DNA of 50,111 nt from an uncultured virus (IMG/VR IMGVR_UViG_3300009111_000004) (Duplodnaviria; Heunggongvirae; Uroviricota; Caudoviricetes): IMG/VR virus record IMGVR_UViG_3300009111_000004. One strand, given 5' to 3'. The notes beneath the pieces were generated by a model that was given only the letters and a program-made list of their open reading frames with translations, made no database searches and was not told the DNA's origin. Of the stretch, positions 132-49,048 are shown piece by piece (position 1 is the stretch's first letter; every line of letters begins with the position of its first letter). The position numbers were made by a program, and so were the translations under genes.

Positions 132-147
132 TGCAAGTCGCGGGCCG
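132..147 (-). promoter_or_regulatory. sigma54-type -24/-12 promoter motif
   Basis: CGGCCCGCGACTTGCA = GG-N10-GC. Confidence 0.7.
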
Positions 148-6222: not shown

Positions 6223-6564
6223 CTATTCTAAAAGATAGATGTGATGATAATCATCTCGGTAAATAAATCCAAAAGTTCCCCAATGATTGACATATAAAAA
6301 AGACGAATCGACCTTACGTTCTACTAGTAGTCGATCTCCAGTTGAAAGAACGGTAATTCTCCCAGAGGGAAAACCATGATATAAATTAATTGAATCAATA
6401 ACTTCTAAGATATCACCAGAATCTAAGTACTGATAGGCTAGGTCTACCCTAGATCTTTTGATGTTTCCAGTAGCGTGGGAAGTTGCGCCAGGATTCATTA
6501 ATGCGATTCCACTGAGAGATAACTGTTTTCTCTGGGACAGAATGAATATTCCGATGAGCAGCAA
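6223..6564 (-). CDS. divergent GQIW-family protein (start uncertain)
   Basis: SGDILEVI...GDRLLV. Confidence 0.55.
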   Translation of the reverse strand: MLLIGIFILSQRKQLSLSGIALMNPGATSHATGNIKRSRVDLAYQYLDSGDILEVIDSINLYHGFPSGRITVLSTGDRLLVERKVDSSFLYVNHWGTFGFIYRDDYHHIYLLE

Positions 6565-6919
6565 TCTGTGGGTCGGTAATAAAAATAATTATCTCAACTT
6601 CATGTCCCCATGCAATAGCCAATTGATAATATGGAGCGATCTCAGCAACCGATGTATTAGTATTGTCAACAATCACCAACATATTACTAGATCCGTTTGG
6701 ATCTTCTGCTCCATGTATGAGCCACATGGTATATTTACGAAGACATTGGGCGTGTGCCTCTGAGAGTTTTGTCCGATCAAATTTATATTGATTATCTACC
6801 ATAAAGAAGTTGTCAGCAGAAAAACACTCTACATTAGAAGCGCCGTATTTATCGATTGTTCGCTGAGTGTAAGTACTTTTCCCAGCCCCACTAACTCCTT
6901 GCAAAATTTGAACTTTCAT
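6449..6919 (-). CDS. P-loop kinase, AAA_33 / polynucleotide-kinase-like
   Basis: GVSGAGKST Walker A, SADNFF, IVDNTN, RNIHSVP. Confidence 0.85.
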   Translation of the reverse strand: MKVQILQGVSGAGKSTYTQRTIDKYGASNVECFSADNFFMVDNQYKFDRTKLSEAHAQCLRKYTMWLIHGAEDPNGSSNMLVIVDNTNTSVAEIAPYYQLAIAWGHEVEIIIFITDPQIAAHRNIHSVPEKTVISQWNRINESWRNFPRYWKHQKI

Positions 6920-7651: not shown

Positions 7652-7677
7652 ATGGTCCCCGTTGTGATAGAAATATG

Positions 7678-7778
7678 TCGGCCCACTTGGATTCGAACCA
7701 AGATTGTCCACTAATCAAGTGGCAGCCTTTCGGCGCCCGGGTATAAGCCGGGGGTCCTACCAATTGAACGATGGGCCG
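7678..7778 (-). tRNA. tRNA-Ile (TAT) with two-hairpin extra arm, 101 nt, no CCA
   Basis: acceptor CGGCCCA/TGGGCCG-A; anticodon arm CCCGG-CTTATAC-CCGGG; T arm CTTGG-TTCGAAT-CCAAG. Confidence 0.85.
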
Positions 7779-12311: not shown

Positions 12312-12650
12312 TTATTCCTTATCGGAGACGAGGTCGGCCTGCCTAATTGGCTGCAAGCTGCGGGCCGTGTATGGTTCCTGATGAGCTCGGGCTTCTTGTA
12401 TGGCTGCGTCAAGTTCTTGAGCAGCCATAGCTAGCTCAGGGTCTTGATTGAGTGTCGGATTACAAGAATCTGGATAGTTATGATCAACAAATGGTTCAAG
12501 ATTATAATTTGGAATTACTGCCTCAAAAGCAGTCATGGCATCAGTCAGAGCGCTTCGTCCGACTGCTCCATTAAGATAATTACGAAGGGCAATAGTAAGT
12601 GCAGTGCCGCGAGCATAATAAATATCTAGTTGTTCATTCATGGATTTCAT
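12312..12650 (-). CDS. hypothetical protein
   Basis: ORF track. Confidence 0.7.
   Translation of the reverse strand: MKSMNEQLDIYYARGTALTIALRNYLNGAVGRSALTDAMTAFEAVIPNYNLEPFVDHNYPDSCNPTLNQDPELAMAAQELDAAIQEARAHQEPYTARSLQPIRQADLVSDKE
12352..12367 (-). promoter_or_regulatory. sigma54-type promoter motif inside the 3' end of a CDS
   Basis: CGGCCCGCAGCTTGCA. Confidence 0.6.
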
Positions 12651-13289: not shown

Positions 13290-13502
13290 TTAGGAATTTT
13301 TGAGACGCATAATCTCATCATCAAGTGCATTTAGCTCAGTAGGTACCCAGGCCCAATCTCTAACCAAAAGTTGATCCTCAGATTCTCTGCCATTACATCC
13401 AATCTCCCTATTCTTTACTGTATCGATAAGGACCCATCGATGCTCGTTTTCTATAAATTTAACCTGGAAACGATTACTCATTGATGAATGCTTTTGGGTC
13501 AA
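13290..13502 (-). CDS. hypothetical protein
   Basis: ORF track. Confidence 0.65.
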   Translation of the reverse strand: MTQKHSSMSNRFQVKFIENEHRWVLIDTVKNREIGCNGRESEDQLLVRDWAWVPTELNALDDEIMRLKNS

Positions 13503-13863
13503 ATCTATTTAATTGAACTTTATATCCAGCTTGACGCAACTTACTAGCCATTCGCTCGGAAGGATATACATCATGAGAATGAATAATCACCAAGCCAGGC
13601 TTGCGGTCCTCTGGTAGCTCTTGGCACATCCAGTCTACTACATGTTCTCCAGTGCGCTCTCGAATAATTTCTGGACGCTCTTGGTCTGGATTATAATATT
13701 CTCCAAGACTATGATCGAGGTAAACTACGTCCCATACTGTGCCCAGTAGAGCAGCCTTCGCCTGAGTGGTATTCCAGGTAGGGCAGTATACTGTACTATC
13801 GCGATAGTATTGAGCGAAAATTTTATGACGAGTTTCATCATCATCCAATACCATGACCTTCAT
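13474..13863 (-). CDS. divergent receiver-like domain (cyclic-phosphate-processing receiver type)
   Basis: VLDDD..R, VYLDHSLG, TGEHVVDW, IIHS. Confidence 0.75.
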   Translation of the reverse strand: MKVMVLDDDETRHKIFAQYYRDSTVYCPTWNTTQAKAALLGTVWDVVYLDHSLGEYYNPDQERPEIIRERTGEHVVDWMCQELPEDRKPGLVIIHSHDVYPSERMASKLRQAGYKVQLNRFDPKAFINE

Positions 13864-14137
13864 TGTCTATCTCCTACAGATGATGAGGATAGAATTGCAT
13901 TAATGATGTGGGACATAAAATAGACGGTACAATGGTAGACCCTTCAAGGCTTTCAAATATGCCCGCCAACTCGTTTCAAGCTCTGGACTATATGGAGTAA
14001 ACTTGGTTGGCTTGCAGTGGAGATTGGTATCAACTGCTTTGATCTTCGGATTACCACAACGGCTACAGGCCATGATGATTCCTCCATATGAGTAGACACG
14101 ACTTATAGTTAGCTAAAGAAGAGTCCTAATATATCCC

Positions 14138-14179
14138 GAGAGGGAAGTGTAGTTATTTAAATAACTACACTTCCCTCTC
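14138..14179. terminator. perfect 42-bp palindrome (terminator or cruciform)
   Basis: gagagggaagtgtagttattt|aaataactacacttccctctc. Confidence 0.6.
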
Positions 14180-14674
14180 AAGGCTTGCGACCATGGCGCA
14201 GGAATTTACGGGACAACGCCCTACCTTGCCTTTGACTGTAATTCCTTGATCGCTTTGTCGGCCCTTTGTTATGTTCGAGGGTTAATCCAAGCCAACCCCG
14301 TCACGCCCTCGCTATCTACGGGCTTATGCCGACGCCGATTCCCAGTAAGTGATAGGTACCGGGATTTTAACCTCCCTACCAGAGGACTAGTCATATACTC
14401 AACCGGAATGGTCAAGCCAGACTAGCATAGCTTCACCGATCATCGATCAAAGCGCTATCTCGCTTCAGACCGTACTCTTTGTTTTCAGATCCGGACCTAA
14501 TACAAAACTCCTCGTCTTCCAGGGCGAACCGATGATCGGAATGTAACGGGGATGGACAGGTTCTACACCGGGTGGGATCGGTGTTAAGTGACTAGTCACC
14601 TATAGATTACCCGTAGTGGATCAACCCGGACCCACAAACAGAATGCGAGTCGACTACGAGTCCTGTCCATCCCC
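14180..14674 (-). ncRNA. putative ~500-nt multi-domain structured ncRNA or cluster of small RNAs
   Basis: no credible ORF; stems 14548-14560/14662-14674 and 14436-14447/14528-14539; G-U pairs favour the minus strand. Confidence 0.6.
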
Positions 14675-14677
14675 AGA

Positions 14678-15226
14678 TTATCCTCCAGCCCGAATGACGA
14701 CGAGCGAAAGGTTCTGAGATGTATCGAACTTGTTGCTCCAGCACTGCTTGGTGAAGGGAACACCCGGCTCGATTTCTGCCTGGCGGTCAATCATCAGCTC
14801 TGCGTAGTCCTGAATGGCTTCCATGGCATCACCAGGACGGGCGTAGAGATTCATGCCAGGTAGATTAGGGATCCGATGACGCTTCTTGGCCTTCTCTGCC
14901 CAGAAATCAATCAACTTCCCACGCTGCTGGAGGAAGTTGACATCCAGCTGGACCGAATGACCCATGCGCTCTTGAATGATGGCCTTCAGCTGTTGAATGG
15001 CCTCCGGCTTCTTGGGATCCCCATAGCGATCGAGGTTGGGGTCATGCGCATCACGCACCCAGGCGGACACCTGGAAGACCTTGTCGCCACGCCTGGGAAC
15101 AACCCGAGCCTGGTACTCCTCCGATTCACCATCCGGATCTGGAATGGCCTCGCCCTCGTCGTACTTCGCCCGCTCCATTGCCACCTGTTGAGCCAACATC
15201 GTAGAAGTTACTGCTCCCTGCGTCAT
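14678..15226 (-). CDS. GC-rich hypothetical protein
   Basis: AGGAG SD, GC3-rich codons, sigma54 motif upstream. Confidence 0.85.
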   Translation of the reverse strand: MTQGAVTSTMLAQQVAMERAKYDEGEAIPDPDGESEEYQARVVPRRGDKVFQVSAWVRDAHDPNLDRYGDPKKPEAIQQLKAIIQERMGHSVQLDVNFLQQRGKLIDFWAEKAKKRHRIPNLPGMNLYARPGDAMEAIQDYAELMIDRQAEIEPGVPFTKQCWSNKFDTSQNLSLVVIRAGG

Positions 15227-15283
15227 GATTATGTTCTCCTAGAGAGGCCGCGCGACCCAGCGCCGCGAGCCGCCCCCCAATGT

Positions 15284-15299
15284 TGCAAGCGCCGGGCCG
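15284..15299 (-). promoter_or_regulatory. sigma54-type promoter motif
   Basis: CGGCCCGGCGCTTGCA. Confidence 0.7.
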
Positions 15300-15319
15300 G
15301 CGAAAGACGCTAAGAAGGA

Positions 15320-15523
15320 TTATTCAACGAGCGAGCAAAATTCCAAGACCCAACTAGTATTAACATACTTTACATCTCCAGTTTGGAGAGTAATTTCCCA
15401 ATATTGGGGAAGTGCATCGTAACCTGAAAGAATGAATCTATCCCCTATATCTATTTCAGGTAGACACCAGCGGGATTGATAATGTGTACGTTGCCAAATT
15501 TGACCAATCTTAATAATATTCAT
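15320..15523 (-). CDS. GQIW-family protein
   Basis: IGQIWQR...IGDRFIL...FCSLV. Confidence 0.8.
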   Translation of the reverse strand: MNIIKIGQIWQRTHYQSRWCLPEIDIGDRFILSGYDALPQYWEITLQTGDVKYVNTSWVLEFCSLVE

Positions 15524-15572
15524 GCAAACCTAATAAGACGATTGACTTGATGAATCATAAAATGCTGTTCTC

Positions 15573-15845
15573 TTAACAACCTTTACAGTTCAGCCATTTT
15601 AGAACGCGGGCTCGACAATAATCGGTTTTTTCGCCAAAATCACATTTAAAATCTTCCCATGAGGAACCATGACGATTGAGCTCATCCTTGACCTCCTGAA
15701 GGGTTATCGTCTGAATCTTATGTCGTCTACGTCGTTTTTTAGGGTTTAGAATGGCCTTGGCTGTAATTTCTCCTGCTTCCGAAGCGGCACCAATAATGAA
15801 GACCTCTACAGCTGTCACCGCTATCATCTTTAACCAATTCCACAT
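15573..15845 (-). CDS. hypothetical protein
   Basis: ORF track. Confidence 0.7.
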   Translation of the reverse strand: MWNWLKMIAVTAVEVFIIGAASEAGEITAKAILNPKKRRRRHKIQTITLQEVKDELNRHGSSWEDFKCDFGEKTDYCRARVLKWLNCKGC

Positions 15846-15846
15846 C

Positions 15847-16128
15847 TTATCCCCTGATTAGACAGCAGCTGTATTTAATATCTAGTTCACTTATTCTCCA
15901 AACACCTGTCCAATGGAGTATCCGCCACTGATTAACACTAGGATGTACGTCAAATGGTATTTCAGGTACTTTTAATTGTCGATCTAATATAAAACGTTCC
16001 CCAACTTTAATATCCATACCAAAATCAGATCTATAATAACGACCAGGCACAATCTTAAATACAGGTATTCCGTACCCTTCTTGAATAACGTCCCGTACGA
16101 CCTCATAAATCTGTCCTGGACAAATCAT
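15847..16128 (-). CDS. GQIW-family protein
   Basis: PGQIYEV...VGERFIL...SCCLI. Confidence 0.75.
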   Translation of the reverse strand: MICPGQIYEVVRDVIQEGYGIPVFKIVPGRYYRSDFGMDIKVGERFILDRQLKVPEIPFDVHPSVNQWRILHWTGVWRISELDIKYSCCLIRG

Positions 16129-17333
16129 TATTTCAATGGAATAAGTTCTTGAACTAAATCTGTGCAAAGCTTATCAAGCTGAATTCGATTTGGAGTACTG
16201 GGAAGAATACTTGTTCTATCAATATATTCTAATTCATTGAGGGATTTTTGTGCCCATTCACATAGATATTCATAAGTCCAGGCCCCACCACGGATCGCCA
16301 ATAATTCTTGAGCATCAGGTCGCCTAACCAATACGCCTTTACCTTCCAAGATTTCTCGACCCATACGTATTAATCGAACTAAGTGCATCCCATGCTTGGT
16401 ATCATAACCATATTTACGTTCTAGTTCGAAGCGAACAGGATTACGATTATTTATCCAAACCTGATAAGATCGCCACTCTTCCTGGCGACTTTTATAGGTA
16501 CGTTCTCGGTCAAGTAATTCTAGAAAATCATCGGAAAAACCGAGAAGAGTACCCGCAATTTGCTCCAAGTCAATGCCACCTATTTCCTTTACTACTGATA
16601 ATGCATGTATTAAACCTTTATGCTCTGGCTTGGTATTGAATTCTTCCACTTTTGTTTGTAGCGCTGCTACCACTTGAGCACGGTACCCGGTTTCAATAAA
16701 CGCGAGTGTCTCCACAAAACGTTCCTGAACAGCAATTTTGGCCGCACTATCAAGTTCATCAACTGGCACATTCCAGTGCTCGATTTGTTTCCGAATCATT
16801 TCCTGAACAGCTATTAATTGATCGGCTGGGATAACTGTATGCTGTGGAAGACCAAATTCTTCTCTGGTGGGGGCAGCCTTAGGAGGATGTCGAAGCCATT
16901 GATAATGTCTCTCAATCTTCTTTAGTTGTGAGACGGCATATCCAGAGAAAGTATATTTAGCCTTACGGCTTAGGAATTGATCTCTATATGTAAGCAGTTT
17001 TTCTCCGACTCCAGTAATAAGTAAATGGTCACTAGGGTCTGTATAGAGTATTTCGATAATATTAGGGTTACAATCAGCTGCTAATTTGAAGAATTTGCGT
17101 ATGTCATAAATAACCATATCTACGCCATGTTGTTGGCGATAAAATTCTACGTGCTCAAATTGCTCCAAATATCCCATAAAGTACTGAATAGGTGGAATAG
17201 TTATGCCTCTAAAATCCTCATCACTAGTAGGAATGCTAGTTCCGTAAGCATGAGAACCATGCTTAGTTAGGAAGATGGTTCGATCCTTCAACCATTGTAG
17301 GTTAGTTTTGATAGTTTGAAAGTTCACAATCAA
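16128..17333 (-). CDS. Pol-beta-superfamily nucleotidyltransferase (RlaP/YcgL-like, RNA-repair associated)
   Basis: HGSHAYGT..SDEDFRG, NPNIIEIL, YDTKHGMHLVRL. Confidence 0.9.
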   Translation of the reverse strand: MIVNFQTIKTNLQWLKDRTIFLTKHGSHAYGTSIPTSDEDFRGITIPPIQYFMGYLEQFEHVEFYRQQHGVDMVIYDIRKFFKLAADCNPNIIEILYTDPSDHLLITGVGEKLLTYRDQFLSRKAKYTFSGYAVSQLKKIERHYQWLRHPPKAAPTREEFGLPQHTVIPADQLIAVQEMIRKQIEHWNVPVDELDSAAKIAVQERFVETLAFIETGYRAQVVAALQTKVEEFNTKPEHKGLIHALSVVKEIGGIDLEQIAGTLLGFSDDFLELLDRERTYKSRQEEWRSYQVWINNRNPVRFELERKYGYDTKHGMHLVRLIRMGREILEGKGVLVRRPDAQELLAIRGGAWTYEYLCEWAQKSLNELEYIDRTSILPSTPNRIQLDKLCTDLVQELIPLK

Positions 17334-18311: not shown

Positions 18312-18582
18312 AAATTAGCCCTGCACCCTCAATTAGCTCATCCGTTGTAAGGGTATAATTTTGACCGTCGACTTTAGCAACGACAATTAAACAATCTGGT
18401 TCCAACATTTTAACTAATAGTTTATCACCACACTGGAGCCAACAGTCTTCGTAATCAAGCCCATAGAATGGTACTGTGCCCCATTCCCAGATTTGACCAA
18501 TTTCGATTTGATCCCACTTATGCGCAAGGCGGGATTTGAACCCGCACGCCCGGTCAGGGGCATCAGATTTTGAGTCTGACAT
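18301..18582 (-). CDS. GQIW-family protein (the in-frame ATG upstream of the motif lies inside tRNA-Leu)
   Basis: IGQIWEW...CGDKLLV. Confidence 0.7.
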   Translation of the reverse strand: MSDSKSDAPDRACGFKSRLAHKWDQIEIGQIWEWGTVPFYGLDYEDCWLQCGDKLLVKMLEPDCLIVVAKVDGQNYTLTTDELIEGAGLIYGD

Positions 18583-18607
18583 GGCTACCAGGTTTCATCA
18601 CTCGCGC
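18521..18607 (-). tRNA. tRNA-Leu (CAA), no CCA
   Basis: GCGCGAG...TCAGA-CTCAAAA-TCTGA, long variable arm, GCGGG-TTCAAAT-CCCGC. Confidence 0.93.
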
Positions 18608-20126: not shown

Positions 20127-21386
20127 CTATAATGTAGCAGGTTGATAATGATCTTGTAAAAACTTAGTTAAGTCAGTAACGGTATTCTTCTCCGGATCTA
20201 ATAATACTAAATCTAACAAGGATTTCGCAATTTCTCCTACTTTTTTAGATGGTTTTAGATTTAGTATCTGCATAATTTGATTTCCACCAATAGCTAGATC
20301 TCGAACACTCAATGGTGTGTTTGATGATAGAGTCGTTCGTAGACTATTAGCTGTTTGCTCCAGTAGGTTTCCACCTCCTACCGATGCCGCCAAGATATCA
20401 TCAACTGTATCTCGACCGACTTTGGATCCCCACTTACGAATCTCGGATGGAGACCAATTTTCAGCGATCGACTGATCGATCATGTGCGTAGCCACATGTA
20501 GTACTCTGCTTACTATTTCTGTAGGATAGGTCAAAATTCTTAAACGATTAGATATCTGATCGGTAGGTATAGACCAAAAATGAAATAGTATGGGAAGCCG
20601 AACAGTAAGTGAAGCAGCAACCTGTCCCAGCATTGGGAGTAATTCAACGCGTCCTTGTTTTAGACAATATTCAGTTTTAGTTTGAAATTCAGGGATGATT
20701 TCGTTAAGAAGTCCGGTTATCAATAGACAACGTAAACCATGATCAACTTTAGGAGCGAGCAAAATCTTATCGAATTCAGCTCGTATTTGTTCATTAGATA
20801 TCTTGCAAAATATAGGTATACAATTAGGTATAGACTGTATGGTAGCTTGATCAAATTCAAAGTCCAAAACAGTAGAAAATCGAATCGCCCGTATACAGCG
20901 TAGCCCATCTTCAGAGAAGCGAGCGATTGGATCTCCGACAGATTTAATTATCCTCTTTTGGAGATCTTCTTGACCACAAAATGGGTCAACTATAACCCCC
21001 ATTATAGGATCCCAAGCAATTGCATTAATAGTAAAGTCTCTACGCCCTAGGTCGGCTTGGATCTCTGTGTGAAACTCAACCTTCTCCGGCCGACGACCGT
21101 CATAGTAAGGACCATCGGTCCGATAAGTAGTAACTTCGATTCCTTGATTGTCGATCAAAACAGTTACTGTTCCATGTTGGATTCCTGTGGGAAGCACTTT
21201 GGTGAAACAGTTTTGGACTTGAGAAGGAATAGCAGACGTGGCTATGTCCCAGTCCTTTGGAATCTTACCAAGAATAGAATCACGAACACATCCACCAACT
21301 AAATAAGCCTGATATCCTGCTTGTTGTAGCTTTGATAATATCGTTAGAACTGCAGCAGGAACAAATCTTGATGATAGATTCATCAT
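20127..21386 (-). CDS. cca: class II tRNA nucleotidyltransferase (CCA-adding enzyme)
   Basis: LVGGCVRD, KDWDIAT, DLGRRDFTINA, FSEDGLRCIR. Confidence 0.92.
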   Translation of the reverse strand: MMNLSSRFVPAAVLTILSKLQQAGYQAYLVGGCVRDSILGKIPKDWDIATSAIPSQVQNCFTKVLPTGIQHGTVTVLIDNQGIEVTTYRTDGPYYDGRRPEKVEFHTEIQADLGRRDFTINAIAWDPIMGVIVDPFCGQEDLQKRIIKSVGDPIARFSEDGLRCIRAIRFSTVLDFEFDQATIQSIPNCIPIFCKISNEQIRAEFDKILLAPKVDHGLRCLLITGLLNEIIPEFQTKTEYCLKQGRVELLPMLGQVAASLTVRLPILFHFWSIPTDQISNRLRILTYPTEIVSRVLHVATHMIDQSIAENWSPSEIRKWGSKVGRDTVDDILAASVGGGNLLEQTANSLRTTLSSNTPLSVRDLAIGGNQIMQILNLKPSKKVGEIAKSLLDLVLLDPEKNTVTDLTKFLQDHYQPATL

Positions 21387-23187: not shown

Positions 23188-23203
23188 TGCAAGCGCCGGG
23201 CCG
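23188..23203 (-). promoter_or_regulatory. sigma54-type promoter motif
   Basis: CGGCCCGGCGCTTGCA. Confidence 0.7.
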
Positions 23204-23725: not shown

Positions 23726-23981
23726 CGATCAGATCTCCATAATCTTCAATGTGGCGTTTCAATAGATCGGCCTGAATCCCACCTAAGGTAACTATAGATG
23801 TCATTGAATGTGGCTCACTATTCCAGATTGATACTTTATTCTCTACTTCCTTAATTATAAACTTTGTGTGTATAGGAAGATAAATAATCTCGTGTTGATC
23901 AACATGACCTATGATACCCCTAATACCGTTATTTTTAGTAGCTCGATTAGATACCTGCCATACCTGACCAACACGAATCAT
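23718..23981 (-). CDS. GQIW-family protein
   Basis: VGQVWQV...HTKFII. Confidence 0.8.
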   Translation of the reverse strand: MIRVGQVWQVSNRATKNNGIRGIIGHVDQHEIIYLPIHTKFIIKEVENKVSIWNSEPHSMTSIVTLGGIQADLLKRHIEDYGDLIDD

Positions 23982-25015
23982 TGATATTCTGTCCCATCTT
24001 TACGTAGGTGGTATTGCTCCCCAACTAATTTTATAATAATCCTACCTAATTTCGGATCCCAACGTTCTTTTCCTAAGCGCATAACAAACCCCTCTCGAAT
24101 TTGAGAAGGAGTAATTATACTATTTCCTGAAGCAAGAGACTCGATAATAGTCCAGTCAAATGGGCCATCATAAAGAACAGGCACCATTGGAATTTGTAAA
24201 CCGGTGCAAATGCGCTTAAAATTATCATAGTCTATATAATGCATAGCTTTCGAATCATAAATATCAAAAGCAGCATAATGAATTGGATCCTCCAAAGTTG
24301 ATCCATATTTTAAATCCTGAACTCTACCATAAACTTCACCATAGACAACAAAATCTGGTATTTGAGCTAGTTTGGTAGCCATATCATATTTACGGGCCGC
24401 CATCCAGAACACGTCTTCGATACGATCCTTGACAAAATAACGATGTGAACTTACATATAAACGTGGGGCCTCTTCCTTGGGATCGTGTCGATGGACCATG
24501 CGAGAATTACAACCGTGGATTTTTTCGGTAACAATGACTCGCTCTCTAGGAACTATTACCGTATGGTATTTTCGAGCTGATTCAATATCATATACTGGAC
24601 AAATTTGACTATCAGGCTGATGGTCTCGATGACATCCGAGACGCATATTGGTCTCAGGCTCTTCGTACTTTATAATCCCTAATGGGGTAGCTACATTATC
24701 ACCTACCTGCCAAACAAGATCAGACGGTAGAATTGAGATAGGAAATAGAAGGCCCATCGAAAAAATACCTCGAAGCTTCTTAGCTTTAACACGATGGGTC
24801 TGCCGTGATTCCTTTTGTTCTAAGAACGTAAAGGCCCGGTTATTCATTGGAACCACAGACTCAATTGGTATATAGACAGCTAAATCTCCAGGTTTAAATT
24901 CTTCAGTTCTAAAAATAACCGGACAACCTTCTACCTCGGTTAGAGAGAGAGTATCGGCATTAGGGTGCTTCTGGGTTTCACCAATTACTATAATTGGGAC
25001 AGCGAAAGTACTCAT
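23978..25015 (-). CDS. ATP-dependent RNA ligase, DRB0094-like (N-terminal OB module)
   Basis: HPNADTL, KLRGIFSMG, motif I TEKIHG, YGEVYG, FDI, REGFV. Confidence 0.92.
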   Translation of the reverse strand: MSTFAVPIIVIGETQKHPNADTLSLTEVEGCPVIFRTEEFKPGDLAVYIPIESVVPMNNRAFTFLEQKESRQTHRVKAKKLRGIFSMGLLFPISILPSDLVWQVGDNVATPLGIIKYEEPETNMRLGCHRDHQPDSQICPVYDIESARKYHTVIVPRERVIVTEKIHGCNSRMVHRHDPKEEAPRLYVSSHRYFVKDRIEDVFWMAARKYDMATKLAQIPDFVVYGEVYGRVQDLKYGSTLEDPIHYAAFDIYDSKAMHYIDYDNFKRICTGLQIPMVPVLYDGPFDWTIIESLASGNSIITPSQIREGFVMRLGKERWDPKLGRIIIKLVGEQYHLRKDGTEYQ

Positions 25016-25257
25016 AGTATGTCCTCTACTATAATAGGCCAAAAATCATTAAAGGTAGTGGCTTTACAATATAACCTCCTACCGTATAAGGTAAAATAAA
25101 CATAATTGTAAGGACTATAGCCATAGACAACTACTTTATCACCACGTTGAAGTTGTATGGACATGAGATAATGATCCACATCCCAAACCCAAACAATATC
25201 AGCATTTACTTCCCAAATTTGACCAATCTCTAACTCAAGAGGTAATTGATCTTTCAT
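25012..25257 (-). CDS. GQIW-family protein
   Basis: IGQIWEV...RGDKVVV. Confidence 0.8.
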   Translation of the reverse strand: MKDQLPLELEIGQIWEVNADIVWVWDVDHYLMSIQLQRGDKVVVYGYSPYNYVYFTLYGRRLYCKATTFNDFWPIIVEDIL

Positions 25258-25879: not shown

Positions 25880-26455
25880 TTACTTCTTATTCTTCTTGAA
25901 AGCCAGATTGATGATTCTTCTAGCATCCCACTTGGAGCCAAAAATTTGAGTTAGAATATCGATAACCTGACGCATGTTACCGCGCTTCTTCGGATTTAAC
26001 AACATCAGCGCTTGATCGGCGGTTAGCTGCTTTTCCTGTAGACCCTTGAGTCTCTGATGAATCTCCGCTTTGTATGACCGATGAAGACCGTCGATTCGCT
26101 GATCAAATGACTGGATAATGGCCTCCTCTCGATTTTGAAGCTCCGCTTTGTATGACTGGTGAAGACCATCGATTTGCTGCTTGTATAACTGATGAAGATC
26201 GTCGATTCGCCGCTCATATGACTGGATGATGGACTTCTCCTGATCCTTGAGCCGACTATCTATATTTGCTAGTGCCTTATTGGCCAAATCCTCAAGATCG
26301 AAGATATACTTTTTCTGGGCCTCCTCGCGCACAGCAAAATCCAATATCTGTTGATCTGCTTCACTGAGAGCCTTGATGGCGCTCGCAATCATATTCTGCA
26401 TGACGTCGGTTGCTTTGAAACTCATATACCTATCTCCCAATTGGAAGGCTGCCAA
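25880..26455 (-). CDS. coiled-coil protein with internal 11-residue-period repeats
   Basis: IDDLHQLYKQQ / IDGLHQSYKAE / IDGLHRSYKAE. Confidence 0.8.
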   Translation of the reverse strand: MAAFQLGDRYMSFKATDVMQNMIASAIKALSEADQQILDFAVREEAQKKYIFDLEDLANKALANIDSRLKDQEKSIIQSYERRIDDLHQLYKQQIDGLHQSYKAELQNREEAIIQSFDQRIDGLHRSYKAEIHQRLKGLQEKQLTADQALMLLNPKKRGNMRQVIDILTQIFGSKWDARRIINLAFKKNKK

Positions 26456-26587
26456 TCATCAGTCCGTGGGAACCACCCACGAATACGCTTTTAAGCGTTT
26501 CGGCTTAGTATGGGTTATACAATGTGCAACTTTCATGTTTACACAGCATATTCACACTTTATAGTTCCTCATATTAGTGTTATTAAT

Positions 26588-30729: not shown

Positions 30730-30874
30730 GGGCACCTGGGTTGCGGATGCCTCCACCACCTGGTTGAACTACTGGGCTAACCAGGAAGCCCATTACGTCG
30801 GCTCGCGGGATTATCGTACCCTATCCACATGGCCAAACCCAGATACTGGGTGCAAGAGGCTTGTGGGAGCCGAA

Positions 30875-31260
30875 TGGAGGTGCGGGGAATCGAACCCCGG
30901 TGTAGGAAACTTACGGTCAAGGTTTCTACGAGCGTAGCTCCGGTTTAGGTATACTGTCAGGGCTATACCGAGCAACTATCCCTGAACCAGTCGCCGTCGA
31001 TTTGTAACCTTAAGCCCCAGGATCGACGACCGTCTCTGGGTCCGCATCCCCCAAATGGACGTTTTCACGGGATGGGGGACCTCCCCGTTACTAACGGCTG
31101 GACTCTTAAGGACCAGCATCACCCTGGCTATTACGCCATGGCGACGGGCGCAACGAAACCGTTGGCCTTTGTTGTTTTGGTCGGCTTTTTACGGGGCCAG
31201 CTGACCAACCCCGGCTCGCTCCTTGTTCCTTGGGCTCCCTATCGAAACCAGTTCACCCCC
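30875..31260 (-). ncRNA. ssrA: tmRNA; tag peptide ANGFVAPVAMA; no encoded CCA
   Basis: 5' GGGGGTGAACTGGTTTCGA; 3' CCGGGGTTCGATTCCCCGCACCTCCA with G3-U70; tag ORF 31131-31166. Confidence 0.93.
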
Positions 31261-31579: not shown

Positions 31580-31595
31580 TGCAAATCGCGGGCCG
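31580..31595 (-). promoter_or_regulatory. sigma54-type promoter motif upstream of the ORF + tmRNA unit
   Basis: CGGCCCGCGATTTGCA. Confidence 0.7.
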
Positions 31596-37405: not shown

Positions 37406-37421
37406 TGCAAGCGCCGGGCCG
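37406..37421 (-). promoter_or_regulatory. sigma54-type promoter motif
   Basis: CGGCCCGGCGCTTGCA. Confidence 0.7.
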
Positions 37422-37941: not shown

Positions 37942-38000
37942 TGCGAGCGCCGCGCCCGATATCCTTAGTCAAACTAGTTCTGCGCGGCCCGCTACTTGCA
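37942..38000. promoter_or_regulatory. back-to-back sigma54-type motifs at the strand switch
   Basis: minus 37942-37957 GGGCGCGGCGCTCGCA; plus 37985-38000 CGGCCCGCTACTTGCA. Confidence 0.7.
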
Positions 38001-42580: not shown

Positions 42581-42596
42581 CGGCGCGCGGCTTGCA
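42581..42596 (+). promoter_or_regulatory. sigma54-type promoter motif
   Basis: CGGCGCGCGGCTTGCA. Confidence 0.7.
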
Positions 42597-42883: not shown

Positions 42884-42899
42884 CGGCGCGGCGCTTGCA
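42884..42899 (+). promoter_or_regulatory. sigma54-type promoter motif
   Basis: CGGCGCGGCGCTTGCA. Confidence 0.7.
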
Positions 42900-43609: not shown

Positions 43610-43625
43610 CGGCACGCGGCTTGCA
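43610..43625 (+). promoter_or_regulatory. sigma54-type promoter motif (near consensus)
   Basis: CGGCACGCGGCTTGCA. Confidence 0.75.
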
Positions 43626-43961: not shown

Positions 43962-43977
43962 CGGCGCGCCGCTTGCA
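43962..43977 (+). promoter_or_regulatory. sigma54-type motif pointing into the non-coding parS region
   Basis: CGGCGCGCCGCTTGCA. Confidence 0.65.
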
Positions 43978-44123
43978 TTTGAGATCGCGGCCCGTCGGGC
44001 GGGCGGGTAGCCCGGATCTCTTCTACCAGCATCTTGTTGGTAGCAAGATAATCTAATAATGGAGGATTACGCCAATGCCCTAGTATGAACCCCTGCGGGG
44101 GAGTGAACATTTAAAACCAACTT

Positions 44124-44280
44124 GGGCCTCGGGTGAGTTCTCCCCGAGGCCCATTTATATTTGAGTGTTCCACGTGGAACACTCTATTTACTCTGAATAC
44201 GGTTCCTCGTCGGAACAAGGACGTACCGGGAGTCAAGTAAATAAATACAGCTTCGCCTCGGGGAGAACTCACCCGAGGCG
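44124..44280. repeat. 25-bp inverted repeat pair, each arm a hairpin, bracketing parS
   Basis: gcctcgggtgagttctccccgaggc ... gcctcggggagaactcacccgaggc. Confidence 0.9.
44166..44181. other. parS: parS centromere-like site
   Basis: TGTTCCACGTGGAACA matches the bacterial parS consensus TGTTNCACGTGNAACA; palindrome extends 44163-44184. Confidence 0.8.
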
Positions 44281-44307
44281 CGAAAATGCCAACTTTCGGA
44301 TTTTGCG

Positions 44308-47057: not shown

Positions 47058-47073
47058 TGCAAGCCGCAAGCCG
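47058..47073 (-). promoter_or_regulatory. sigma54-type motif upstream of R1
   Basis: CGGCTTGCGGCTTGCA. Confidence 0.65.
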
Positions 47074-49032: not shown

Positions 49033-49048
49033 TGCAAGCCGCAAGCCA
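49033..49048 (-). promoter_or_regulatory. sigma54-type motif upstream of R5
   Basis: TGGCTTGCGGCTTGCA. Confidence 0.65.

What the first reader, a model, noticed from the sequence alone, without database searches (positions are those of the whole stretch)
14180..14674. ~500-nt ORF-free, multi-domain structured tract behind a sigma54-driven GC-rich gene
Seen: consecutive stem-closed domains, namely GGGGATGGACAGG/CCTGTCCATCCCC (127 nt), CCGATCATCGGT/ATCGATGATCGG (104 nt), CTAGTC/GACTAG, GTCGGC/GCCGAC, and GCGATC-AGGAATT/AATTCCT-GGTCGC. G-U pairs indicate the minus strand and ACAAAG recurs three times. The tract starts 3 nt after the stop of 14678..15226 and ends at a 42-bp palindrome. Inference: a large ornate ncRNA or an array of small RNAs, possibly forming an RNP with the upstream unknown protein.
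Basis: partly seen in the sequence, partly recalled or inferred. Interest (0 to 1): 0.72.

Follow-up and report, generated by a model that had tools for sequence, protein, structure and literature searches.

The report
Structured RNA tail in phage gene cassette
A large uncultured phage carries a small GC-rich cassette in which an orphan gene is followed by about 500 bases of non-coding sequence that should fold into a chain of stable RNA domains; it looks like a new structured phage RNA, but no relatives or expression data could be obtained to prove it.

Summary
Window 14181-14677 has no coding signal. That strand folds far better than shuffles (RNA z -4.27), while the plus strand does not (z -0.84).

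The tract is the 3' part of a self-contained GC-rich cassette (about 15298-14137, minus strand) in a ~40% GC phage region of RNA-repair genes, tRNAs and a tmRNA. The cassette holds a sigma54-type -24/-12 box, a leader with a Shine-Dalgarno site, an orphan 182-aa gene, the tract, and a 20-bp hairpin. The promoter box is one of 11 exact copies in the window (0.04 expected), all co-oriented with the genes.

No Rfam family matches, including GOLLD, ROOL, OLE, 6S, RNase P and Y RNA. The protein has one homologue (70% identity), and its DNA could not be fetched. None of 63 related phage loci has the tract, and three metagenome runs show no variants. Conservation, covariation and transcription are therefore untested.

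My reading is a new structured phage RNA made as the 3' tail of the orphan gene's transcript (confidence about 0.55). An incidental or young palindromic spacer is the main rival. The RNP idea is untested, and the ACAAAG recurrence is chance.

The parts
15284..15298 (-). Sigma54-type -24/-12 promoter box GGCCCGGCGCTTGCA (GG and TTGCA at the canonical spacing). It starts 21 nt after the stop codon of the preceding ORF 15320..15523.
   Evidence: The 18-nt form GCCGGCCCGGCGCTTGCA recurs at 4 sites with up to 3 mismatches, 0 expected. GGCNCGNNNNTTGCA has 11 exact matches against 0.04 expected, all co-oriented with the local genes. The contexts are aligned. Dependence on sigma54 itself is inferred from the consensus, which I recall (TGGCACG-N4-TTGCW).
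15227..15283 (-). GC-rich leader with a Shine-Dalgarno site (GGAG, 9 nt before the ATG).
   Evidence: Read directly. A similar GC-rich leader follows the other copies of the box.
14678..15226 (-). Orphan gene P0001, 182 aa, 56% GC, ending ...VVIRAGG.
   Evidence: ORF and translation. Codon-position GC is 0.65/0.38/0.66. There is one full-length homologue, P0002, at 70% identity and also 182 aa. No hit at any significant E-value in Pfam (best E 0.23), PHROGs (best E 0.15), NCBIfam, PADLOC, PDB sequences (best E 0.22) or the ESM Atlas feature search.
14548..14674 (-). Domain D1: 127 nt. A 13-bp perfect closing stem is extended by 8 + 8 bp, with a three-way junction carrying two hairpins.
   Evidence: (I4). 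Pair probabilities are 0.94-1.00 apart from the distal 8-bp and 4-bp helices, which are 0.51.
14430..14547 (-). Domain D2: a long irregular hairpin closed by a 13-bp stem (2 G-U). The inner helices are rich in G-U (4 of 7 and 2 of 5 pairs).
   Evidence: p 0.96-0.99.
14340..14426 (-). Domains D3-D5: three simple hairpins at 14426-14386, 14385-14371 and 14364-14340.
   Evidence: p 0.94-0.99.
14182..14336 (-). Domain D6: a branched domain. D6a (14333-14257) has two hairpins. D6b (14253-14187) is context-dependent.
   Evidence: In the fold of the whole predicted transcript, D6b is replaced by pairing with the CDS, while D1-D5, D6a and the terminal hairpin are kept: 158 of 189 pairs.
14137..14180 (-). 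Terminal 20-bp hairpin (perfect 42-bp palindrome 14138-14179). It is the probable 3' end or stabiliser of the unit, and the GC-rich composition ends here.
   Evidence: I1; p 0.97. No T-run follows directly, and the site is not among the 5 terminator-like sites. Logan contigs break at this palindrome (table 8).

Best explanation
The tract is the non-coding, highly structured 3' part of a self-contained cassette, a 'moron', in a large phage.

Proposed mechanism:
1. A sigma54-type promoter (15298-15284) starts a minus-strand transcript.
2. The transcript encodes the orphan 182-aa protein.
3. It then runs through about 500 nt that fold into six stem-closed domains.
4. It ends at, or is protected by, a 20-bp hairpin (14180-14137).

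I think the folded tail is a functional RNA in its own right. It would be a stable RNA that persists as the 3' part of the mRNA, or is cut from it as 3'UTR-derived RNAs are. It would act in the phage's RNA-repair and translation-takeover programme as a binding platform or decoy.

Shown: the anatomy, the absence of coding signal, the strand-specific excess folding, and the repeated promoter box. Inferred: transcription, the ends of the RNA, any processing, any function, and any contact with the protein.
For: Folding:
- Strand-specific folding excess: minus z -4.27, plus z -0.84, adjacent CDS sense strand z +0.73.
- 13 control windows had a minimum z of -2.14, and the window's tmRNA gave -1.73.
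- The fold is well defined. Most helices have p>0.9, and 28 of 189 pairs are G-U.
- 158 of 189 pairs survive folding of the whole predicted transcript.
- With DNA parameters the signal is weaker: minus z -2.98, plus z -1.46.

Non-coding:
- Codon-position GC is flat.
- 0 of 10 frames hit Pfam.
- Both homologous proteins are 182 aa and end with the same VVIRAGG, so the tract is not a recently lost C-terminus.

Transcription-unit logic:
- The promoter box is 1 of 11 exact copies, against 0.04 expected.
- There is no further box on the minus strand between 15284 and 12366.
- The longest hairpin palindrome of the window lies at the tract's end.

Composition and context:
- The tract is 51.5% GC in a surrounding region of about 40% GC. 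The other RNA genes of the window are likewise GC-rich (tmRNA gap 54.8%).
- Neighbours are an RlaP nucleotidyltransferase, a cREC domain protein, a CCA-adding enzyme, an RNA ligase and an AAA_33 kinase.
- The window also holds 4 tRNAs and a tmRNA.
Against: - There is no comparative evidence at all. The tract is absent from 63 related phage loci by blastn, tblastn, nhmmer and a covariance model of D1.
- There is no match in the phage or plasmid collections.
- There are no variants in the tract in the two runs that cover it (X1, X2; the third run, X3, covers only its 14150-14272 end), so no covariation can be counted.
- There is no expression evidence.
- Several stems are long and perfect (13 bp, 20 bp). 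This is as expected of young inverted repeats as of an old conserved RNA.
- In a GC-corrected MFE scan the tract windows ranked only 14th-15th of 398.
- The end hairpin lacks a U-tract, so termination there is not assured.
- The first stem starts 3 nt after the stop codon, so terminating ribosomes would melt it.
Confidence: 0.55

Rival explanations
1. Neutral spacer. The tract is leftover DNA that came in with the GC-rich cassette. It could be a long-decayed gene or donor intergenic DNA, with inverted repeats that arose recently. Its folding would have no function beyond perhaps slowing 3' decay of the mRNA.
For: - No homologue of the tract was found anywhere I could search.
- The protein is itself an orphan with one relative.
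- The 13-bp and 20-bp stems are perfect.
- Other places in the window fold as well or better after GC correction.
- The ACAAAG 'motif' is at chance level, and GGA is not enriched: 10 observed against 9.6 expected.
Against: - z is -4.27 on one strand only.
- 15% of pairs are G-U, and helix probabilities are high.
- There is no residual codon periodicity.
- ~500 nt of ORF-free sequence is unusual in this tightly packed region. It is one of the two longest such gaps.
Confidence: 0.25
2. Not one ornate RNA. The tract is a string of independent hairpin elements in an operon spacer, such as processing sites, stabilisers or attenuators. They would tune expression of the orphan gene and of the genes downstream (orf 14073..13900 and the cREC gene 13863..13474) by read-through.
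For: - The domains are consecutive and each is closed by its own stem, with only a 3-4-bp long-range helix.
- No promoter box lies between 15284 and 12366 on the minus strand, so the downstream genes may depend on read-through.
- The end hairpin has no U-tract.
- D6b refolds depending on context.
Against: D1, D2 and D6 are branched domains of 118-155 nt, not simple stabiliser hairpins. 500 nt is long for an intercistronic spacer in this phage.
Confidence: 0.12
3. A DNA-level element. The palindromes act in DNA as cruciforms or as single-stranded DNA, for example as a recombination, replication-priming or packaging site.
For: - The inverted repeats are perfect, including a 42-bp palindrome.
- The minus strand still folds better than shuffles with DNA parameters (z -2.98).
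- A second ORF-free region at 43985-44307 has a symmetric 25-bp long-range inverted repeat that folds equally well on both strands. This phage therefore does carry DNA-symmetric repeats.
Against: - The plus strand of the tract is not significantly structured: RNA z -0.84, DNA z -1.46.
- Many helices rely on G-U pairs.
- There are no iterons or tandem repeats.
Confidence: 0.08

Closest known systems
GOLLD and ROOL RNAs (large ornate RNAs of phages and prophages)
   Same: A large (about 500 nt), multi-domain, GC-elevated non-coding tract in a phage, in a region with tRNA genes. GOLLD and ROOL are described as encoded in phages and prophages, often near tRNA islands, and of unknown function (passages of 10.1101/2024.12.08.627333 read).
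   Different: There is no match to either Rfam model, even at E<=10. The tract is attached to a protein gene as its 3' tail. There is no covariation-supported structure and no sign of the pseudoknots that mark those families. It is known from one phage lineage only.
Y RNAs / YrlA with Ro60 (Rsr) in sigma54-controlled RNA-repair operons (rsr-yrlBA-rtcBA; recalled, not from a call)
   Same: A structured RNA lies directly behind a protein gene, under a sigma54-type promoter, in an RNA-repair neighbourhood (RlaP, RNA ligase, CCA enzyme, cREC).
   Different: There is no Y RNA model hit. The protein is 182 aa with no TROVE or any other Pfam domain. The tract is four to five times longer than a Y RNA, and no tRNA-like module was detected.
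Phage morons (self-contained transcription units inserted between phage genes; concept recalled)
   Same: The cassette has its own promoter box, one gene and a terminal hairpin. Its GC content is 50-58% against a flank of about 40%.
   Different: A ~500-nt structured non-coding tail is not part of the usual moron layout. The hairpin is not a canonical intrinsic terminator.
Sigma54-dependent and 3'UTR-derived bacterial small RNAs (e.g. CrcZ, GlmY, Pxr; CpxQ-type 3'UTR RNAs; recalled)
   Same: A sigma54-type promoter drives a structured RNA, and the RNA lies at the 3' end of an mRNA.
   Different: Those RNAs are 100-400 nt and are chromosomal, with known activators or RNase E processing. Here no activator gene was found among the 118 ORFs of the window that I scanned with Pfam, and no processing data exist.

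Membership tests
GOLLD / ROOL / OLE / HEARO / raiA (large bacterial and phage ncRNA families in Rfam) | Match to the family's covariance model | tested here: not met
   cmscan of the whole window at gathering score gave only tmRNA, 4 tRNAs and Hammerhead_II. cmscan of 13800-15500 at E<=10 gave 10 weak hits. Nine fall on the 42-bp hairpin or the AT-rich flank and one (Actino-pnp, 14435-14540, E 8.6, 15.3 bits against a gathering score of 47.7) lies inside the tract; none is to these families.
GOLLD / ROOL | Encoded in phages or prophages, often near tRNA genes (passages read) | tested here: met
   The context is phage-like (PHROG hits; relatives of the RlaP gene on 63 viral contigs). tRNA genes lie at 18521-18607 and 7677-7750.
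Y RNA / YrlA-Rsr module | Y RNA model match and an adjacent Ro60 (TROVE) protein | tested here: not met
   No Y RNA hit at E<=10. P0001 has no Pfam hit better than E 0.23.
6S RNA, RNase P RNA, tmRNA, group I/II introns, riboswitches | Match to the Rfam model | tested here: not met
   The window's tmRNA is elsewhere, at 30872-31260.
Sigma54-dependent promoter | -24 GG and -12 TTGC(A) elements at fixed spacing (consensus recalled) | tested here: met
   GGCCCGGCGCTTGCA at 15298-15284. There are 11 exact matches to GGCNCGNNNNTTGCA against 0.04 expected, all co-oriented with the genes.
Sigma54-dependent promoter | Transcription needs sigma54 and an enhancer-binding activator | not testable with these tools
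   No Sigma54_activat domain was found among the 118 window ORFs scanned. The rest of the phage genome and the host are not available.
Type III toxin-antitoxin (ToxIN-like) | Antitoxin RNA made of tandem repeats upstream of the toxin gene | tested here: not met
   No tandem or multi-copy repeat longer than 15 nt occurs in 14100-14700. The RNA lies downstream of the gene. There is no PADLOC hit.
Phage moron | Own promoter, own terminator, and composition unlike the flanks | tested here: inconclusive
   The promoter box is met and the composition shift is met. A hairpin is present, but it has no U-tract and is not called terminator-like.
CsrB/RsmZ-type protein sponges | Many GGA motifs in hairpin loops | tested here: not met
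   There are 10 GGA against 9.6 +/- 2.7 in shuffles, and most lie in stems.

The most novel reading that the evidence does not exclude
The tract is the founding member of a new class of large, multi-domain phage RNA. It would travel together with a dedicated orphan protein as a sigma54-driven cassette inside an RNA-repair/tRNA island. It would work as an RNA-protein particle or RNA-only assembly that shields or hijacks RNA-repair or translation factors during infection. Functionally this would parallel GOLLD, ROOL or Y RNA, without homology to any of them.
Probability: 0.25. Interest if true: 0.75.

Novelty: new variant of a known kind. Interest (0 to 1): 0.5.

Why it matters
Large structured RNAs of phages such as GOLLD and ROOL are few. 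They cluster with tRNA genes and still have no known function. A further, unrelated example would give a new and experimentally compact handle on what such RNAs do. This one is tied to a specific small protein, has a defined promoter type, and sits among RNA-repair genes. Separately, a phage that uses a sigma54-type box as a repeated promoter is unusual and would be worth testing on its own. If the tract turns out to be an incidental palindromic spacer, the finding is ordinary.

Tried and rejected
Homologues of the protein and its context:
- The search for homologous proteins and an exhaustive HMMER search of 1.84 billion representatives gave only P0002. A 4271-aa repeat protein, P0003, also appeared, but its hit is a weak 45-residue match repeated many times and I treat it as spurious.
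- Scans for the P0002 or P0001 locus returned no locus.
- One search reported one tblastn-positive stretch but no locus. The conserved-peptide pattern found nothing, so I take that stretch to be a weak chance hit.

Relatives of the phage:
- 63 loci with RlaP relatives (35-58% identity in most) have no island, no P0001 and none of the small neighbouring ORFs.
- 8 of these 63 loci were scanned with Rfam and gave one tRNA only.
- The 17-nt promoter motif found 2 unrelated contigs in viral contigs.
- The phage and plasmid collections gave no match.

Sequencing runs:
- No RNA holder was listed.
- Three wetland DNA runs of one study hold the stretch, and two of them may be its source. No contig lacks the island.

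Protein structure and annotation:
- The AlphaFold2 model is poor (pLDDT 40.8), so no fold search was run.
- The ESM Atlas gave no usable feature hit, and its structure rows all had TM below 0.5 by query.
- PDB sequence search, NCBIfam and PADLOC gave nothing significant.
- The C-terminal ...VVIRAGG recalled ubiquitin-like tails to me. No tool result supports that, so I drop it.

Other ideas checked:
- A flanking direct repeat CTTC(T)TTAGC that I saw by eye is at chance level: 38% of shuffles score as well.
- CsrA-sponge idea: GGA is not enriched.
- Earlier notes of this scan hold nothing on this genome or on look-alikes.
- I did not scan collections with patterns taken from the tract itself. 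With a single sequence there is no basis for choosing conserved positions.

Full report
**What the window is.** No genome is held for it.
- Almost all ORFs up to about 37.5 kb lie on the minus strand and are short.
- PHROG and Pfam hits are phage-like and RNA-centred:
  - RlaP-family nucleotidyltransferase, 16128-17333
  - cREC receiver domain protein, 13474-13863
  - CCA-adding enzyme, 20127-21386
  - RNA ligase, 23978-25042
  - AAA_33 kinase, 6449-6919
  - two HNH endonucleases
  - an NlpC/P60 tail-associated protein
- Rfam finds a tmRNA, four tRNAs and a type II hammerhead. ARAGORN finds the four tRNAs.
- The gene next to the finding occurs on contigs up to 174 kb.
- I read this as the accessory, RNA-repair/tRNA region of a large uncultured phage. 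It was seen in wetland metagenome runs of one study.

**The observation.**
All five are part of the minus-strand minimum-free-energy structure, with mean pair probabilities of 0.78-1.00.
- The predicted fold has 189 pairs, 28 of them G-U. It is organised as six stem-closed domains followed by a 20-bp hairpin:

| Element | Coordinates |
|---|---|
| D1 | 14674-14548 |
| D2 | 14547-14430 |
| D3 | 14426-14386 |
| D4 | 14385-14371 |
| D5 | 14364-14340 |
| D6 | 14336-14182 |
| Hairpin | 14180-14137 |

- The hairpin is the 42-bp perfect palindrome, the longest of the 10 hairpin-type inverted repeats reported in the window.
- The first stem starts 3 nt after the stop codon of ORF 14678..15226.

**Is it more than chance?**
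- For the tract alone (14181-14677), the minus strand as RNA has MFE -190.8 kcal/mol against -163.5 +/- 6.4 for dinucleotide shuffles (z -4.27).
- The plus strand has z -0.84, and the sense strand of the neighbouring coding region has z +0.73.
- Including the hairpin, the tool's own figures are z -7.40 (minus) and -4.55 (plus).
- Thirteen other 497-nt sense-strand windows gave z between -2.14 and +0.78, with mean -0.32. The window's real tmRNA gave -1.73.
- With DNA energy parameters the signal is weaker: -2.98 (minus) and -1.46 (plus).
- When the whole predicted transcript (15273-14100) is folded, 158 of the 189 pairs are kept. Only D6b and the short end-to-end helices are lost, to pairing with the coding region.
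- Against this, a cruder scan gives a lower rank. It used MFE regressed on GC over 199 windows on both strands, not in register with the tract, and placed the tract windows only 14th and 15th of 398.
- The ACAAAG recurrence is at chance level.

**It is non-coding.**
- No ORF of 60 aa or more with a start codon lies in 13864-14595.
- 0 of 10 stop-to-stop frames match Pfam at E<=1.
- GC by codon position is flat in the tract (0.52/0.52/0.50). It is strongly periodic in the adjacent gene (0.65/0.38/0.66).
- The protein and its only homologue are both 182 aa and end in the same seven residues. The tract is therefore not a recently lost C-terminal extension.

**The unit it belongs to.**
- GC rises to 50-58% between about 14130 and 15330, against about 40% on either side.
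- GGCCCGGCGCTTGCA lies at 15298-15284, starting 21 nt after the stop of the preceding ORF. It has GG and TTGCA at the spacing of sigma54 -24/-12 promoters (consensus recalled).
The 18-nt form recurs at 4 sites, with 0 expected. GGCNCGNNNNTTGCA has 11 exact matches against 0.04 expected.
- All 11 are co-oriented with the local genes. Each is followed by a GC-rich leader, and most by a start codon some 55-115 nt downstream.
- No further box lies on the minus strand between 15284 and 12366.
- The cassette therefore reads: promoter box, leader with GGAG, orphan gene, 497-nt folded tract, 20-bp hairpin.
- The hairpin has no U-run and is not called terminator-like. Read-through into orf 14073..13900 and the cREC gene remains possible.

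**What it is not.**
- No Rfam family matches in the tract at gathering score or at E<=10. This covers GOLLD, ROOL, OLE, HEARO, raiA, 6S, RNase P, Y RNA, introns and riboswitches. The 10 weak hits fall on the 42-bp hairpin or the AT-rich flank, apart from one chance-level hit inside the tract (Actino-pnp, 14435-14540, E 8.6, 15.3 bits against a gathering score of 47.7).
- There are no tandem repeats, GGA is not enriched, and there are no defence-system hits.

**The protein.**
- P0001 has no significant hit in Pfam (best E 0.23), PHROGs (best E 0.15), NCBIfam, PADLOC or PDB sequences (best E 0.22).
- Its model is poor (pLDDT 40.8; Atlas model 0.42).
- Its pI is 5.7, with one basic patch around residues 102-120.
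- Nothing speaks for or against RNA binding.

**Comparative evidence: none obtainable.**
- The protein has one homologue among 1.84 billion representatives.
- The homologue's contig was not returned by any scan.
- 63 viral loci around RlaP relatives lack the gene, the tract and the small neighbours. 8 of the 63 were scanned with Rfam and held a single tRNA.
- The phage and plasmid collections give no match.
- Two metagenome runs that may be the source carry the island with no difference over 14150-15557. A third holds fragments.
- No RNA run is listed.
The third, folding no better than shuffles, is rejected.

**Interpretation.** The most economical reading is a moron-like cassette whose transcript carries a long, stably folded 3' tail.
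- I consider the tail more likely functional than incidental. The reasons are the one-strand folding excess, the high share of G-U pairs, the well-defined modular fold, the lack of any coding trace, and its size in a tightly packed region.
- It sits in the kind of place where large phage RNAs of unknown function are found. GOLLD and ROOL are encoded in phages and prophages, often near tRNA islands (passages read).
- It is not a member of those families.
- The layout of a sigma54-type promoter, a protein gene and a structured RNA in an RNA-repair setting recalls the rsr-Y RNA arrangement (recalled). The defining parts, Ro60 and a Y RNA, are absent.
- Whether the RNA acts alone, with P0001, or only in cis is open.
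- The main rival is a young, neutral palindromic spacer. The perfect 13-bp and 20-bp stems and the total lack of relatives keep that rival alive.

**Literature seen.**
- Passages of 10.1101/2024.12.08.627333.
- Passages of PMC10914365, stating that Pseudomonas phage YuA depends on sigma70 and sigma54 and has a sigma54-like promoter region.
- Passages of PMC7693777, on a putative sigma54-like factor in a Pectobacterium phage.
- For the RlaP preprint 10.64898/2025.12.29.696909, only the search listing and the start of the abstract.
- I make no claim that the tract is absent from print beyond its absence from Rfam 15 and from the collections searched.

**Verdict.** This is a credible candidate for a new structured phage RNA, but it rests on one sequence. 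Interest 0.5.

Noticed in passing
window 132-146(-), 12352-12366(-), 15284-15298(-), 23188-23202(-), 31580-31594(-), 37406-37420(-), 37986-38000(+), 42582-42596(+), 42885-42899(+), 43611-43625(+), 43963-43977(+): A sigma54-type -24/-12 box (GGCNCGNNNNTTGCA) occurs 11 times, against 0.04 expected. It is always co-oriented with the local genes and followed by a GC-rich leader. This phage seems to use it as a repeated promoter class. The looser pattern GGN8TTGCA gives 22 matches against 5.6 expected. No activator gene was found among the 118 ORFs scanned.
   Followed up: partly
window 43985-44307: An ORF-free ~320-nt region lies directly behind the box at 43963-43977. It has a perfect ~25-bp long-range inverted repeat that encloses further hairpins. 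It folds far better than shuffles on both strands (z -9.7 and -8.1) and is the top outlier of the GC-corrected MFE scan. It could be a second non-coding element, symmetric at the DNA level.
   Followed up: partly
window 30872-31260(-): A phage-borne tmRNA (Rfam 113.8 bits, full length) that ARAGORN did not call. A copy of the promoter box lies about 320 nt upstream, at 31580-31594.
   Followed up: no
window 26443-26505(-): A type II hammerhead ribozyme match just above the gathering score (38.8 against 37 bits). It overlaps the start of ORF 25880..26455.
   Followed up: no
window 6449-6919, 13474-13863, 16128-17333, 20127-21386, 23978-25042 (all -): An RNA-repair/tRNA-maintenance gene set is spread over 20 kb together with four tRNA genes: AAA_33 kinase, cREC receiver domain protein, RlaP nucleotidyltransferase, CCA-adding enzyme and RNA ligase.
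   Followed up: partly
window 15558-15869: In run X1 the contig differs from the window by 19 substitutions (18 transitions, 1 transversion) and one inserted base within about 310 nt. These cover ORF 15573..15845 and the start of the next ORF. The contig is identical over 14150-15557, so there is a sharp strain-level mosaic boundary just upstream of the cassette.
   Followed up: no
window 47058-47072(-) and 49033-49047(-): Two copies of GGCTTGCGGCTTGCA are each followed by a near-identical ~80-nt hairpin-rich sequence (seen in the printout). They lie in the GC-rich (55-63%) right end of the window and look like a duplicated promoter-leader element.
   Followed up: no
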